Shown here piece by piece: positions 15,001 to 33,000 of a DNA stretch of 63,526 bases (the stretch's first letter is position 1; each line of letters starts with the position of its first letter). The DNA comes from an archaeon (lineage in GTDB: Archaea; Iainarchaeota; Iainarchaeia; Iainarchaeales; 1-14-0-10-31-34), in NCBI GenBank assembly GCA_043815885.1, contig JBDRIL010000005.1, positions 1-63,526 on the forward strand, written 5' to 3'. Made by a program: the position numbers.

Positions 15001-18000
15001 TTTTTCCTCCTATCTCTTTGACTTTTGTTTTTTCTTTCTTGCCTTCTTTCCTAAAGGCTTTTTTGGTTCAGTTCTTCTTGGATCATCAATCAAAAGCATT
15101 TTATCATACTTAATCATTTTCTGCTTCAGTTTTTCGTCATTAAAGTATTCTATTATGGATTTTGCTATTGCGCTTCTTGCGGCCACTGCCTGGCCCATAA
15201 AACCGCCCCCATTTGTACTGACACTTATATTCACTTCTTTCATTCTTTCCCCTGTCATTATCAGGGGCTCCCTGATAAATTCATTCAAGTACTTTGGCTG
15301 GATTAATTCAATACTTCTTTTATTTATCCTTATTTTCCCGTTTCCTGTTTTAATGGTCGCTCTTGCAACGGCTTCCTTCTTTTTTGCCTTAACATGAATT
15401 CCATACTTCTTACTCTTCTTTACCTTTTTTTTCTTCTTTTTTATTTTCCCTGTTTCCTCTGCCTCTTCTGTTTTCTCTTTCTCGTCTATTTTTGTTCCTT
15501 CGCTTTTCTCATCCGTCTTTTCTTCTTTTTCTTCAGTTTTTTCGTTTCCTGTTTCCTCTTTCTTTTCTTCAGTTTCTTTTTCCTTCTTTTCAATCTTTTT
15601 CTCTTTTATTCCTTTCTTTTCTTCAGTCTCTTTTTCTTCTTTTGCACCACTGTTTTCTCCCTGCTTCTCTTTTCTAAAAGCGGTGTTTTCCTCTTTTTTT
15701 ACTGTTTTCTTTTTTTCCTTCATTTTATTCACCATTTTGCCCCAAGTGCTTTGCTTATGTCTCCCAAAAAAACGAAATTACTTTCTTCCCTCTTTCTTGC
15801 GATTTCAATTGAAGAAACATTTCCAGTTATTTCCTTTGGCTTTCCAATAAATACCTTTAATTTCTTTAAAGCATCTATTCCTCTTTTTCTCCTGTACGGA
15901 AGCATTCCTCTTACTGCTCTCTTTACTATTGCGTCCGGTTTCCTTGGATATTTAGGGCCAAAATGGGGGTTTCCCTTTCTTTGGAGATCCAGTCTTTTCT
16001 TGAATTTCTTTGAAACAAATTCCTTGCTTCCTATAATGACTGTTTTTTCTGCATTGATTACTTCAACCTTTTCTCCTTTCAATAATTTTTTAGCGATCTC
16101 TGAGGCCATTCTTCCCAGAATCAATTCCTCTGCATTCACTACAACCATTTTTTTCTCCTTCCCTACTTTAAAATAACTATTTCTTTTGCCTTTGTCTTCT
16201 TTTCAAGCAGTTCATTTAAGCTCATTGCATTCCCTTTTTTTTCTTTTATCTTCTTTAGAGCCTTTTCAGAGAATTCCAATGCAGCAACCTCTGCCTTTGA
16301 TTCAATACTGCCGGTACTTAATACTTTTCCTGGAACCAAAAGAATTTTTCCCTTGAATTTTTTACTCATTTTATCAATCTTCCACAGATTCACTGAAACC
16401 CTTGTCCTTCTTGATTTTTCTATTCTTTTCGCTACGTCTATCCACAACTTTTCCTTTCTCTTCTTTCCTTCTTTTTTCATCTTTGAAATAAATTTTTTTG
16501 TTTCCAGTTTTGTTGGGCCGGTTGCTTTCATTGTTTTTCACCTTTTTTTTAGTGCCTTAATGCAAACCAATTGTATGTGGTTTGCGGGAGGGAGGATTTG
16601 AACCCCCGAAGGCACTAAGCCACAGGATCTTAAGTCCTGCCCCTTTGACCGCTTGGGTACCCCCGCATCAAAACACTTAAACCTTATTTAATTCTTTCTT
16701 GAATTCAGCTGTTTTTTCCTCCAGTGTATTTACTGCCTGTTCAATTATTTCCTTTACTTCAAGTCCTCCAGTGGATTCTATCCTCATTATGAATGTATCT
16801 TTGCTGTAACTCAGTTCCAGGTTTCCTTCCTTGCATTCATCCTTGCATGCCCCGCATAAATCACATTTTGTTGGATCTTTCAATATGATTTTTTTTGCTT
16901 TTACTTCAAGTATATTCTTTGAGCATGCCTCAACGCATTTCTTGCACAGATTACATTCCTTCAGGTTATCTATTGAAGGCAATTCGTTGTAGCTGACTAA
17001 TGCCGGGCTCCACTTCGTGTGTTCTTTGCCTGTTCCAATTACTGCCTCCATTTCAAGCTTTATTTTTTGATTCTTTCCCAGCTTTACTATTGGAACCCTT
17101 TTGTCTACTACTTCTACCCCTACTGAACCCTTTAAGTCTCTTGAATAAATCATTCCTGGCCCTTCTTTTTCTAGGACAAGGTTTACTTTTTCTCCTTTTC
17201 CGTATTTCTTTGTCTCTGTTTTTATTGGTATCAGCCCCAGTCTATGGGCAAGCATTTCATCAAACATCACTGAACTGTTTTCATAGATGTTAACGTTCTC
17301 TATTGCGAGTACGGGGATACTGTTAGCCATTGTTCTTCTTAGCGCATTCATGAATGCAGTATTAACTCCTTTAATCAGAAATTTTGCGCTGTTTTCTTTT
17401 TTCTCTAATACTTTTATATCCAATTTATTTTCCCCCTATGTTTTTTTTCCTCTAAATCTCTTCTTCCTTCTACATCCATTGTGAGGGGCGGGTGTAACGT
17501 TTTCTATTGTCCTTATCCTGATGCCATTTCTTGTAAGTGAACGAATGGCTGCTTCTGCTCCCTGTCCTGGGCTCTTTGTTTTGATTCCTCCTTGAGCCCT
17601 TACCTTTACATCAACCTCTATTATTCCTTTATCTTTTGCCTTTCCAGCAATTATCTCTGCTGCCTTCATTGCAGCATAAGGGCTTCCTTCTTTGTGTTGT
17701 GCCTTTGTTACTGCTCCTCCACTGCTCGTTGCAATGGTTTCCTGCCCGGTTAAATCACTAAGCAAAATAATCGTGTTATTATGGGAAGCAAATATGTGTA
17801 TAATACATCTTTTATTCATTTTTCATCACTTTTTTATTTTCCCTGTTTCCCCTGTCTCTTCTGTTTTCTCTTTCTTTTCCTCTTCTTCATCCTCTTTTTC
17901 TTCTTTTGCATCACTGCTTTTTTCAGAAGCTTCAACTTTTGCGCCACTGCTTTTTCTAAAAGCGGTGTTTTCTTCTTTTTTTATTGTCTTCTTTTCTTTT

Positions 18001-30000: not shown

Positions 30001-33000
30001 ACCAATCTTGCTTGATCGCCCACCTTCTTCATATATCCTTCAGCTATCCTTTGCTTTCTTTTTCTGCTTCCCTTTCCTCCCAGTGCTCCTGAAAGCAATA
30101 GTTCTGTTCCTACTGCTCCTGCCCTCATGATGTCTTTGATTGCTCTGTATGCAACACTCCTCCAGCTGAATCCTCTCTCAATCAATTTTGATATCTTGTC
30201 AGCCATTGCTTGTGCGTCAAGTTCAGGCACTTCTATTTCCTTTATCTCTATTTGAGGGTTATCTATCTTGAATCTTTCTTCAATTTCTTTTGTAAGGCTC
30301 CTGATGTTTGTTCCTCCCTTTCCTATCGCTAAACCAGGCCTGGTTACATTAACTATTATTCTTGTCACAAGTGGGGTCTTTACTGTTTCAAGTTTTGTAA
30401 ATCCTGCCTTCCCTAACTCTTTCCTCAAATACGTCTCTAGTTCTGCTTTCTTTATTCCCTGAGTGATAAAGTTTCTTTCAATCAATTATTTTCCCTCCGC
30501 TACCACTATCTCCAAATGAGTTGATTTCCTCTTCCTTCTCTTTCCTGAAATATGCCCTTTTGATTGGTGGGAAACCCTTGAAAAACCCTTGGAAGCAAAA
30601 AAATGTATTATCAGCAAATTCTCTGAATTTAGTCCCTTGTAGTCTGCATTGGCTTTAGCGCTTTCAAGCAATTTCAGCATGATCTTTGCAGTATTTTTTG
30701 GATATCTTCCTGACTTAGTGAATGAAATACTCCTTCCTTTCCTGTGTGCAACCTTTTTATTGTATCTCCTTAATGGAAGGAATTCCTTTTTATCAATCAC
30801 GTTCTGAAAAAATTTTTCTGCCCTGCTTACTTTCATTCCCTTTAATTCCCTTGCAAATTCAGTGGAATACTTCAATGAACACCTTGCATTTGACAGAATT
30901 GCCTTTGCAATCTTTTTCTCATCCTTTATTTCGTAATTGTATTTTCTCTTTACCATTAATTCACCTTTACTTTCTTGCAGTGATTGCAGTACTGCTTCTT
31001 GTTGCACCGATTCCTGCCTTTCCATGCATTAATCTCTTTCTTGTAAGTACTAATTCCCCTAAATAATGCCCGAGCATTTCTGGTTCTATTTCCCTTATCT
31101 CAAAACTGTTTCCCCTGTATATTGCAAACTTTAATCCAATCATTGCAGGCATTATAATTGTATCCCTTTTGTGGGTTCTTATCGCTTTAGGGTGTTTTCC
31201 TTCCGTCAATTCCTTTTTTGCTTTAGCTACCTTCTTCATTAATTGTTTATTGAATCCTTTCTTCAAGCTCTTTTTTGCCCTTGAAGTAAGCAGCCCAGCA
31301 AACTCTTCCAGACTCATTTCATTTAATTCATTTATTGTTTTTCCCCGGTAAGTAAACTCTTTTCTAGCCATTTATTTCATTCACCCTTTCTTCTTTCTTC
31401 CCGTCCTCTTTGAAGCAATTGCTCCAACCTTTCTTCCTGGAGGCGCGTGCCTTGAAACAGACTTGCTCTTTCCTGGATGATGCTGGCTCCCTCCAAACGG
31501 ATGGCTTGGAGGATTCATTGCTACGCCCCTGACTATTGGATAAGGCCTGCTTAAAGACTTCATTAAATGAAATGCTTTTCCTGCCTTAACCAATGGTTTC
31601 TCTTTTCTTCCTCCTCCTGCAGCATTCCCGATTGTTGCCCTGCATTCAGGCAATAAAGCAATTGTTTTCCCTGAAGGCAGTTTCAAGTAAATTCTTCCCT
31701 TTTCCTTTGACCCAACCAATGCATAAGATCCAGCACTCCTGATAAACTTCCCTCCGTCTCCAGGAATCAATTCAATGTTAAAGACAGGGCATCCTTCTGG
31801 GAGTTCTCTAACAGGAAGCACATTCCCTATATCTATTCCTGCCTTTTTTCCATACTCCAGTTCCTGCCCCTCAACCAATCCTTCTGCAGCGATAACTATT
31901 TCCTTCTTCTTATTCTCAAATAAGACCTCTGCCAATACTGCTGTCTTGCCTCTGTCATTCAGTACTCTGATGATTTGTCCTTTAATGACTCCTTCTTTTT
32001 GTTCATCATCATAGGAAATATAATTTACATCAAATGCAGCATTCTGTGTTGCCTTAAAGGTCGGAGAACCTTTTCCCCTTCTCTGGCTCTTCAATCTTTT
32101 TCCCATTTACAATACACCCAATTTAATTGCAATATCCCCTGCCTTGAATCCCTTGCTTATCTTTACTATTGCTTTTTTTCTTCCCTTCATGTCCTTTATT
32201 ACCCTTACACTATCCACTTTTGCTTTATACAATCTCTCAACAGATTCCTTTATCTCTTTCTTTGTTGCCTTCTTGTTCACAATAAAACAAATCTTGTTCT
32301 CTGCCTCAATCATGTTCACTGCCTTCTCCGAAATCAATGGATAAAGCACTACTTCATAATCTTTCAGGCTTACTTCTTTTTTCATTTTCTCTCTCCTAAT
32401 GCACTTATCGCTGACTCAGTCCATAAGGTAAGCCTTCCTGCCTTTGTTCCAGGAGCAAGCAGTTCTGCATTCAGGTTCTTTTCTTGCACAACATCAATTC
32501 CCTCTATATTCCTTGCAGCCCTGAATACTGAATTCTCTTTTCCTGTAACAATTAAGATACTCTTTCTCCGCTTATACTTTCTTCCCCTTCTCTTTCCCTT
32601 TCCTGCCCTGATTTTTCTCTTCTCCTTTGCTTTCTCGACATCATCCCATAAACTCAGTTTCTTTAATACTCCTGCGACTTCCTTTGTCTTCTTCAATGAA
32701 GCAAACTTTTCTTCCACGACCAAAGGCAATTCAATTCCTTCATTTATTCTGTGCCCTCTTCCCTTCACTAATTCCTTTCTTGTTGTTGCAGCAATCGCTG
32801 AATCCAATGCCTTTCTTTTTTCCTTTTTATTGATTTTTTCCTTTAATTTTTTTTCAACTTGAGGCGGATGAGCTTTTGGGCCCTTCACTGCCCCTGATAT
32901 TCCTGCAACTCTTCCATACAACAATTCCCTTCTGTCCTTTGTTCTTGGCCTTCTTGCCCTTCCTACATTAATTGTTCTCCTGAATTGCGGTTTTTTTCTG

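What a model noticed while it worked through the whole genome (the two positions that open the first line are those of the whole stretch)
15010..30485. Long Lys/Glu-rich tails on eleven ribosomal proteins
Eleven of 58 ribosomal proteins are 42-116 residues longer than their best Swiss-Prot archaeal counterparts, 789 extra residues in all, and the extra parts are low-complexity tails with 48-69% Lys plus Glu in ten of the eleven. I read them as translated polyampholyte brushes on the ribosome surface that take over a job done elsewhere by rRNA expansion segments or separate factors, such as keeping a slow, crowded ribosome soluble or docking partners, and as the landing ground for the in-frame repeat reported separately. 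New would be a ribosome with eukaryote-sized protein extensions in a 1.2-Mb archaeon, worth a cryo-EM look.
Evidence so far: Length against the best Swiss-Prot hit and K+E share of the unmatched part: uS9 241 v 134 aa (N-terminal, 0.62), uS3 324 v 250 (0.69), uL24 180 v 119 (0.62), uL10 427 v 335 (0.59), uL16 243 v 173 (0.54), uS4 223 v 181 (0.53), eL31 161 v 91 (0.53), eL43 199 v 83 (0.50), eS8 190 v 131 (0.49), eL32 175 v 126 (N-terminal, 0.48), uS2 242 v 198 (0.29). Nine are C-terminal, so they must be translated unless a stop is missed. Only 12 proteins of 1314 have a 40-residue window with 26 or more K+E; 7 of them are ribosomal proteins. eL43 open frames in 24 other Iainarchaeales genomes are 104-194 codons in 23 and 76 in one, against 83 aa for the best Swiss-Prot hit, so the trait is order-wide and longest [...]
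(Added by a program. Inside this text positions count along the whole contig: contig position 1 is position 1 of the stretch shown here. "Call 12" and the like, gene names such as g00115 and contig names such as C1 are that model's own, and its searches are not shown. The text may have been shortened before it was handed on; [...] marks where a part breaks off. The agent that wrote the report below was given it as the finding of a first reader that could run no searches.)

Follow-up and report, generated by a model that had tools for sequence, protein, structure and literature searches.

The report
Charged floppy tails on archaeal ribosomes
Many ribosomal proteins of this small-genome archaeon carry long, flexible, lysine- and glutamate-rich tails; such tails are common in other archaea and bacteria, but here they appear to be kept for their length and charge rather than their sequence, and unrelated genes in one genome copy pieces of tail DNA from each other.

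Summary
The tails are real. All eleven lengths reproduce, and Lys/Glu windows are enriched in ribosomal proteins (7 of 54 against 5 of 1225 others). The uS9 N-terminal arm is not a start-call error. The last ~40 residues of eL31 are a frameshift.

The trait is not special to this organism or to small genomes. Extension load over 15 S10-spc proteins has a median of 246 aa in this order, 138 in Woesearchaeota-type genomes, 192 in Thermoplasmatota and 0 in Methanococci. rRNA is full length and aNAC, DnaK and prefoldin are present, so replacement of lost rRNA or chaperones is unsupported.

The tails are near-neutral, well-mixed polyampholytes whose sequence turns over. Yet 71-85% of their codons are one change from a stop and they persist (uL16 48-87 aa in 30 of 30 genomes, without translational coupling). 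That points to selection on length and charge.

New here: tails of non-homologous genes within one genome share in-frame DNA of 24-170 nt in 8 of 30 genomes, never off-frame, partly through a 36-nt hairpin repeat.

Best reading: a composition-selected solubility or anti-sticking coat, rebuilt by slippage and intragenomic copying. Function untested. New variant of a known kind.

The parts
14067..14198 (-). uS2 C-terminal tail, 44 aa, Arg/Gly-rich tip (gene 14064-14792); a different class from the K/E tails
   Evidence: 26-58 aa in 21 of 21 genomes where uS2 was in the fetched stretch
15403..15735 (-). uS9 N-terminal arm, 111 aa, K+E 0.63 (gene 15010-15735); start overlaps the uL13 stop; holds a split copy of the repeat
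15436..15482 (-). 47-nt in-frame segment shared with the uS4 tail (96% identical), not part of the hairpin repeat
17829..18014 (-). uS4 C-terminal tail, 62 aa, K+E 0.55 (gene 17826-18503)
17829..17875 (-). partner copy of the 47-nt segment shared with uS9
17937..17972 (-). hairpin repeat copy in the uS4 tail, followed by a tandem half copy
24961..25122 (-). eL32 N-terminal arm, 54 aa, K+E 0.52 (gene 24595-25122); start overlaps the uL6 stop
25045..25080 (-). hairpin repeat copy in the eL32 arm, followed by a tandem half copy
27450..27641 (-). uL24 C-terminal tail, 64 aa, K+E 0.62 (gene 27447-27989)
27476..27505 (-). 30-nt exact in-frame segment shared with the uS3 tail, found nowhere else in the genome
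27540..27575 (-). hairpin repeat copy in the uL24 tail
29514..29897 (-). uS3 C-terminal tail, 128 aa, K+E 0.69, net charge -2 (gene 29511-30485); predicted helix to about residue 240, then low-confidence coil
29567..29596 (-). partner copy of the 30-nt segment shared with uL24
29667..29702 (-). diverged hairpin repeat copy in the uS3 tail
63322..63357 (+). hairpin repeat copy in the linker of a non-ribosomal membrane protein (63085 to contig end); a paralogue on contig C9 lacks it
5126..5620 (-). eS6 with a K/E tail of about 40 aa past the Pfam domain (1-119 of 164)

Best explanation
The tails are translated, mostly disordered, strongly charged and near-neutral chains hung on exposed termini of ribosomal proteins. 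Together they form a hydrophilic coat that is selected for bulk properties (presence, rough length, charge balance, few hydrophobic residues), not for sequence. Most likely job: an entropic-bristle layer that keeps basic ribosomal proteins and assembled ribosomes from sticking to RNA, DNA and each other in a non-thermophilic cell. Because any K/E/A-rich in-frame sequence will do, the DNA turns over fast by slippage, by in-frame copying between tail-coding stretches of different genes, and by uptake of a short hairpin repeat. Shown: composition, turnover, in-frame sharing, persistence. Inferred: selection against truncation (from a simulation), the copying mechanism (ectopic gene conversion seeded by purine-rich microhomology), and the solubility role, which is not tested at all.
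For: Composition: charged fraction 0.52-0.74, net charge -2 to +7 in 7 of 11 tails, charges better mixed than shuffles in uS3, uL10, uL24, eL43, no single-helix charge pattern. Net charge per residue is protein-specific across genomes although sequence is not kept: uS3 0.01+-0.06 (n=30), uL16 0.04+-0.08 (30), uL10 -0.10 (14), eL32 +0.22 (24), uL15 -0.35 (8); uS3 tails of congeners are barely above shuffled identity (0.45-0.51 against 0.44-0.47) while cores are 0.79-0.80 identical. As GC3 rises K+E falls (0.58 to 0.38) and A+P rises, but net charge stays near 0 and hydrophobics near 0.1 in 71 uS3 tails. 71-85% of tail codons are one change from a stop; a neutral simulation leaves a median of 3-33 codons at 0.25-1 substitutions per site, while four-fold distances within the family are 0.36-1.33; observed uL16 48-87 aa in 30 of 30, uS3 26-167 in 30 of 30. 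uL16 overlaps no downstream gene in 30 of 30 and has 20 nt or more (or no ORF) in 27 of 30. Off-frame readings would be strongly basic (median net charge 0.46 and 0.32 against 0.06); 29 of 291 tails have internal duplications, all in frame. Sharing between genes: 18 of 582 within-genome pairs in 8 of 30 genomes, 0 off-frame, 0 of 1746 codon shuffles, 0 of 800 between-genome non-orthologous pairs. Tails are short in groups with thermophile-like cores.
Against: No functional or expression data. Which proteins carry a tail differs by lineage: uL10 tail under 25 aa in 12 of 27 loci, uL24 25 aa or more in only 13 of 26 genomes; total load spans 52-417 aa within the order. eL31 is frameshifted here and has an early stop in G001, so at least part of a tail can be lost or these are assembly errors. 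Tail charge does not offset core charge (eL32, eL43 and eL31 have basic cores and basic tails), against simple neutralisation. The simulation ignores regrowth by slippage and read-through. The temperature link is weak (Spearman -0.27, p=0.02, n=71, related genomes; none within the order) and thermophiles lose disorder generally (recalled). The proximal 40-45 residues of the uS3 tail are predicted helical.
Confidence: 0.5

Rival explanations
1. Near-neutral accretion. Exposed termini tolerate hydrophilic additions; slippage and copying in purine-rich DNA add sequence as fast as stops and deletions remove it. Selection only removes harmful versions (basic, hydrophobic, off-frame). The tails do nothing useful.
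For: Patchy, lineage-specific distribution and eightfold range of total load; K+E follows GC3 (rho -0.63); the repeat is copied as DNA, with 25 non-synonymous and 3 synonymous differences over 29.3 and 6.7 sites in 14 coding copies (copies are not independent and many changes are in the loop codon); similar tails on non-ribosomal proteins; damaged eL31 tails. N-terminal arms cannot be lost by a stop, so they can ratchet.
Against: uL16 tail length is tight (70+-9 aa, n=30) with no coupling to a downstream gene; stops should cut tails quickly; protein-specific net charge; tail length does not follow GC3 (rho -0.13, p=0.28); about 930 extra residues per ribosome is a real cost in a 1.16-Mb genome (inference).
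Confidence: 0.27
2. Specific docking arms. Each tail is a flexible tether or helix that binds rRNA, a neighbouring protein, a translation factor or the membrane; the low-complexity part is the linker.
For: Conserved short motifs: the proximal stretch of the uL16 tail, a helix-like tip on eL31, a KKEFEE-like motif in many uS4 tails, an Arg-rich uS2 tip, and a conserved tip on eL32 tails in the Woesearchaeota-type set. In M. pneumoniae the S6, L22 and L29 extensions are ordered, and those of L22 and L29 lie on peripheral rRNA (PMC9534751).
Against: Most tail residues have no conserved motif; G000 lacks the uS4 motif and has the eL31 tip out of frame; the same DNA segment serves in proteins of both subunits. 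Probably true for the short conserved parts only.
Confidence: 0.15
3. The tails are kept as spacers for translational coupling or mRNA-level effects in ribosomal operons; the peptide is incidental.
For: uS3, uL24, uS4, eL43 and eL31 stops lie at or within a few bases of the next start.
Against: uL16 and most uL10 genes are not coupled yet keep tails; an in-frame deletion would keep coupling and remove the tail.
Confidence: 0.05
4. The tails replace lost rRNA segments or lost chaperones, as in mitoribosomes.
For: Small genome; large added protein mass.
Against: Both rRNAs cover the whole archaeal models at normal length; aNAC, Hsp70 and prefoldin present; larger-genome Thermoplasmatota carry up to 624 aa in the same cluster; tails are neutral and not conserved, unlike RNA-replacing protein (inference). 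Helix-by-helix rRNA comparison was not done.
Confidence: 0.03

Closest known systems
Mycoplasma pneumoniae ribosomal protein extensions (Xue et al. 2022, PMC9534751; main-text passages and passages of supplement file 1 read, file 2 not readable)
   Same: Small-genome prokaryote; 11 of 52 ribosomal proteins extended (2 N-terminal, 9 C-terminal); most predicted disordered; reported as common across bacteria; disruption affects fitness.
   Different: Bacterial. In the passages I read there is no K/E polyampholyte analysis, no archaea and no DNA sharing between extensions.
Low-complexity regions of prokaryotic ribosomal proteins (Ntountoumi et al. 2019, PMC6821194; passages read)
   Same: Ala/Glu/Lys-rich regions in 117 archaeal cases, mainly S3, S24, L10, L12; function proposed from cost.
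   Different: Here more proteins per genome, Lys and Glu balanced; uL16, eL31, eL43, eL32, uS4, uS9, uL24 are not named in the passages read.
Flexible protein fragment coat of ribosomes (McGrath et al. 2026, bioRxiv 10.64898/2026.06.18.733196; parts 1-2 of 4 read, supplements closed)
   Same: Unresolved terminal fragments form a coat; Glu-rich in bacteria, Lys-rich in eukaryotes, poor in aromatics.
   Different: Its abstract lists bacteria, eukaryotes and mitochondria, not archaea; it favours membrane binding, which near-neutral tails fit poorly.
Coding palindromic repeats: Rickettsia RPE and the M. jannaschii elements (seen only as cited in PMC2996958 and PMC3184786; passages read, originals not read)
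   Same: Palindromic DNA found in frame in housekeeping genes, in unstructured segments, and also between genes.
   Different: The element here is about 36 nt against about 105-146 nt for RPE, accounts for a minority of tail length, and several shared segments are not palindromic.
Solved archaeal ribosome entries 9o17/9nri (organism not given by the tool; recalled as Methanosarcina acetivorans)
   Same: uS3 of 318 aa and eL32 of 161 aa.
   Different: uL24 119 and uL16 173 aa are untailed there.

Membership tests
Disordered low-complexity ribosomal protein extensions | Terminal extension of more than 20 aa beyond the homologous core | tested here: met
Disordered low-complexity ribosomal protein extensions | Ala/Glu/Lys-biased, poor in hydrophobic residues | tested here: met
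   uS2 is Arg/Gly-rich instead
Disordered low-complexity ribosomal protein extensions | Predicted disorder | tested here: met
   uS3 only: pLDDT mostly below 50 from residue 237, helix 195-241 before it
Disordered low-complexity ribosomal protein extensions | Present on the assembled ribosome and unresolved in density | not testable with these tools
   needs proteomics or cryo-EM
Disordered low-complexity ribosomal protein extensions | Fitness cost on removal | not testable with these tools
   only indirect sequence evidence
Mitoribosome-type protein compensation for lost rRNA | Shortened rRNA | tested here: not met
   23S 2991 nt over model 1-2987; 16S 1494 nt over model 1-1478
Mitoribosome-type protein compensation for lost rRNA | Extensions conserved among relatives | tested here: not met
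   only short motifs are kept
RPE-like coding palindromic repeat (the 36-nt element only) | Inverted repeat able to form a hairpin | tested here: met
   10-bp stem, -11.1 kcal/mol on the T-rich strand with RNA parameters; no shuffle control run
RPE-like coding palindromic repeat (the 36-nt element only) | Dispersed in-frame copies in unrelated genes plus intergenic copies | tested here: met
   14 coding and 2 intergenic full copies; all coding copies in one frame and orientation
RPE-like coding palindromic repeat (the 36-nt element only) | Length of about 105-146 nt | tested here: not met
   about 36 nt, with 33-nt tandem half copies
RPE-like coding palindromic repeat (the 36-nt element only) | A mobilising enzyme | tested here: inconclusive
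   no Y1 transposase found in a 92% complete genome; three TnpB-like matches, link not examined
RPE-like coding palindromic repeat (the 36-nt element only) | Target-site duplication or clean empty site | tested here: inconclusive
   the C9 paralogue lacks the repeat but keeps a similar half site, which fits conversion as well as insertion
Single alpha-helix (ER/K) domains | Opposite charges at i+3 and i+4 above shuffle | tested here: not met
   z from -3.4 to +0.5 in the 11 tails; eL31 mean +0.49 over 28
Canonical archaeal uL10 stalk tail | C-terminal hydrophobic motif shared with aP1 (definition recalled) | tested here: not met
   aP1 next door ends in GLGALFG; uL10 ends in K/E residues

The most novel reading that the evidence does not exclude
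The tail-coding DNA of a genome's ribosomal proteins is one recombining pool: non-homologous genes trade in-frame segments often enough that the ribosome's disordered coat evolves in concert, as a single composition-selected trait, with short hairpin repeats from tRNA/rRNA-flanking regions feeding the pool. This would be concerted evolution between unrelated genes, driven by a shared physical job of their tails.
Probability: 0.3. Interest if true: 0.75.

Novelty: new variant of a known kind. Interest (0 to 1): 0.47.

Why it matters
If the coat is selected, uL16, uS3 and eL31 tails give a clean test of what disordered ribosomal extensions do, since sequence can be scrambled and composition kept. 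The in-frame sharing shows a route by which disordered regions spread between unrelated genes in prokaryotes. I found no report of that for ribosomal proteins, nor of these tails in this group, in ten library searches (listings only, open-licence papers and preprints only). Practical point: these tails must be trimmed from ribosomal-protein phylogenies, because they can group by genome and not by gene.

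Tried and rejected
Wrong start for uS9: rejected. rRNA loss and missing chaperones: rejected. 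Single alpha-helix domains: rejected. Charge compensation of the core: not seen. Coupling as the general reason: fails for uL16. The repeat as a conserved peptide motif: changes are not biased to synonymous sites. A Y1 transposase as mover: none found. Single-sequence fold of uS3 was uninformative (mean pLDDT 47.7) and was redone with a 62-sequence alignment. Sequencing runs: no RNA holder listed. No read- or contig-level check of the tails was obtained, so assembly errors in A-runs (eL31 here, the G001 stop) and strain-level variation stay open. Rows dropped: the 78-nt match in G162 (one ORF hit by two profiles), all 'eL18 N' rows (uL15 N-termini mis-assigned), tails with unknown residues, the second distant eL31 hit in G008, and G138, whose record title and tail motifs disagree. 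The G211 match is a helix-hairpin-helix-like motif (label recalled), not tail copying. The G016 eL14/eL32 match (58 nt) is only, since eL14 was not. PMC13454478 (passages) held nothing on uS3; PMC12919033 was seen as abstract and outline only and is not relied on.

Full report
Scope. The window holds the main ribosomal cluster of a 1.16-Mb, 36.8% GC, 92% complete archaeal genome. Six of the eleven genes named are here (uS2, uS9, uS4, eL32, uL24, uS3); five are on other contigs. Group names for the outgroups come from record titles.

Observation. All eleven lengths reproduce, the Pfam domains leave the tails uncovered (10 proteins scanned), and solved homologues are shorter. The proteome is itself rich in Lys (10.3%) and Glu (9.1%), yet only 12 of 1279 predicted proteins have 26 or more K+E in 40 residues: 7 of 54 ribosomal against 5 of 1225 others (p=1e-7; my gene calls, ribosomal set picked by eye). 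uS9 has no start codon between codons 5 and 150, so its 111-aa arm is obligatory. For eL32, 12 of 21 genomes with an arm of 40 aa or more have no start codon near the core. eL31 is the exception: its last ~40 residues are Arg/Gln-rich, while another frame continues in K/E/A style, resembles the G002 tail tip and ends overlapping the next gene's start. It is a frameshift in an A-run, real or from assembly.

What the tails are. By my core boundaries they total 933 aa with net charge +68, of which 22 is the off-frame eL31 tail, 18 eL43, 11 uS2 and 10 eL32; the other seven lie between -2 and +7. Charged fraction is 0.52-0.74. Charges are better mixed than shuffles in uS3, uL10, uL24 and eL43, and there is no single-helix pattern. 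AlphaFold with 62 sequences gives a confident uS3 core, a helix over 195-241 and low confidence beyond 237. From recall, the termini are spread over the exit-tunnel rim, the small-subunit head and entry channel, the stalk base and elsewhere; I did not test positions.

Relatives. I read 20-kb stretches from 25 of 30 relatives plus 4 more of the same order and 5 of the same class, chosen for contig length. uS3 tails are 26-167 aa in 30 of 30. uL16 is 48-87 in 30 of 30, eL31 35-95 in the 28 kept, eL43 0-116 in 30, uL10 25 aa or more in 15 of 27; uL24 25 or more in 13 of 26. Other proteins gain tails in single lineages (uL29, uS17, uL15, uS11, uS13). Two classes emerge: steady tails with a short conserved motif (uL16, eL31, uS2, part of uS4) and variable ones (uL10, uL24, uS9, eL43, eL32). 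Among congeners, cores are 0.79-0.80 identical and uS3 tails barely exceed shuffled identity; uL16 tails keep more (0.61-0.66 against 0.39-0.45).

Other archaea. I fetched the same cluster from 20 of 46 sampled genomes of the Woesearchaeota record's phylum, 10 of 21 Altiarchaeota, 10 of 26 Thermoplasmatota and 6 of 26 of the Methanothermococcus record's phylum, plus five single genomes. Low-complexity extension over 15 proteins, in genomes with 13 or more found: median 246 aa in this order (n=27, range 52-417; G000 246), 138 (n=21), 192 (n=10, up to 624), 0 (n=6), and 42 in the rest of the class (n=5). Median uS3 tails are 95.5, 53, 74 (Altiarchaeota), 86 and 14 aa. So the order is at the high end of a widespread trait, and small genome size is not the cause. 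Three same-class genomes with thermophile-like cores have 25-42 aa and two with mesophile-like cores 171-256; overall the correlation is weak and absent within the order.

Are they selected? 71-85% of tail codons are one change from a stop. A neutral simulation leaves a median of 3-33 codons at 0.25-1 substitutions per site, and four-fold distances in the family are 0.36-1.33. The simulation ignores regrowth. Coupling to the next gene could also punish early stops, but uL16 overlaps no downstream gene in 30 of 30 loci, its neighbours vary, and its tail is 70+-9 aa. Net charge per residue is protein-specific across genomes and stays near zero for uS3 as GC3 changes while Ala and Pro replace Lys and Glu. 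Against this: patchy presence, the damaged eL31 tails here and in G001, and no offset of core charge.

How they turn over. Tails of different genes in one genome share in-frame DNA: 15 of 414 pairs at 35 bits or more, in 8 of 26 genomes, against 0 off-frame, 0 of 1242 codon shuffles, 1 of 600 sampled orthologous pairs (of 1239) and 1 of 1200 sampled non-orthologous pairs (of 9522) between genomes. Rescoring with pair-specific composition gave 18 of 582 in 8 of 30 genomes, 0 of 1746 shuffles. Examples: 170 nt between uS3 and uS4 in G025 with a 91-nt exact core, 104 nt between eL32 and uS9 in G001, 58 nt in G016. Outside this order the signal was marginal: 2 weak real pairs of 87 and 1 motif match of 117. 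Pairs involving distant genes gave 18 of 662, but 15 of them come from G000 and G008, which carry hairpin repeats; the long non-hairpin copies lie within the cluster. Internal duplications occur in 29 of 291 tails, all in frame. In G000 a 36-nt hairpin repeat has 14 full coding copies, in six ribosomal genes (uL10 twice) and seven others, a split copy in uS9, and 2 intergenic copies between convergent genes. Its changes are not biased to synonymous sites (25 against 3), so it is copied as DNA. Similar T-run/A-run hairpins occur 7, 7 and 6 times in tails of G000, G008 and G006, against 0.15 or fewer per genome in shuffles. The repeat is absent from the uS2, uL16, eL31 and eS8 tails, so it is a passenger and not the origin of the trait.

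Replacement idea. 23S and 16S rRNA are full length; aNAC, Hsp70 and prefoldin are present; aP1 is normal while uL10 has lost the usual hydrophobic end.

What is known. M. pneumoniae has 11 of 52 ribosomal proteins extended, mostly disordered, common across bacteria, with fitness effects on disruption (PMC9534751; passages; one supplement unreadable). Ala/Glu/Lys low-complexity regions in archaeal S3, S24, L10 and L12 are reported (PMC6821194; passages). A preprint describes a general flexible coat, without archaea in its abstract (10.64898/2026.06.18.733196; half the text; supplements closed). In-frame coding palindromes are known in Rickettsia and M. jannaschii (cited in PMC2996958 and PMC3184786; passages). 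Ten searches of the held library listed nothing on these tails in this group or on sharing between ribosomal tails; subscription papers are not covered.

Verdict. Real, translated in all likelihood, and a strong case of a known kind. Most likely a coat selected for bulk properties (0.5); near-neutral accretion is the main rival (0.27); specific docking probably holds for short conserved parts (0.15). The part worth following is the in-frame exchange between unrelated genes. Interest 0.47.

Noticed in passing
G000 contigs C14:3700-4960, C20:11680-11860, C26:32190-32420, C29:17970-19880, C33:13780-13960, C45:6080-6320, C61:16650-16900: A mosaic family of short hairpin modules next to tRNA-like and rRNA sequences; one module is a variant of the tail repeat. 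At C61:16720-16860 it appears to sit inside a tRNA-like gene that ARAGORN did not call; several other tRNAs are called with 75-103 nt introns.
   Followed up: partly
window 63085-63526 and G000 C9:569-997: Two near-identical copies of a membrane-protein gene, one with and one without the repeat; either paralogues or two strain alleles in the assembly.
   Followed up: partly
G000 C37:743-1504: A TATA-binding-protein-like sequence (named by eye) with a ~60-aa Lys/Val/Ala/Pro tail reminiscent of histone H1.
   Followed up: no
G000 C19:4664-5194: A 176-aa protein with a K/E N-terminal arm holding the repeat, followed by a histone-fold-like stretch (by eye).
   Followed up: no
window 2925-3533, 49721-50926; G000 C61:34245-35990, C31:27564-29129: K/E tails also on RNA polymerase subunits, a topoisomerase VI B-like protein and an ATP synthase B-like subunit (names by eye).
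   Followed up: partly
L138-L155, L186 (phylum of the Woesearchaeota record): eL32 carries its extension at the C-terminus (48-90 aa) with a conserved tip motif, whereas this order extends the N-terminus.
   Followed up: no
L168, L170, L172, L174, L183 (Thermoplasmatota): Helix-hairpin-helix-like domains (label recalled) fused through charged linkers to eL32 or uS3.
   Followed up: no
L256-L282 (uL10 loci): uL10 ends right after the stalk spine or in a K/E tail in the relatives read; in several same-family genomes a small acidic ORF lies between uL10 and aP1.
   Followed up: no
window 55384-58374: The RNA polymerase B-type ORF of 996 aa seems to hold an intein-like insert with a homing-endonuclease-like part (by eye).
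   Followed up: no
L316-L318 (G000 C38, C11, C2): Three TnpB/Cas12f-like matches, two in 420-aa frames, with no Y1 transposase found in the genome.
   Followed up: no
L198 (G008 C1): A second, divergent eL31 in G008 with a different neighbourhood; possibly contamination.
   Followed up: no
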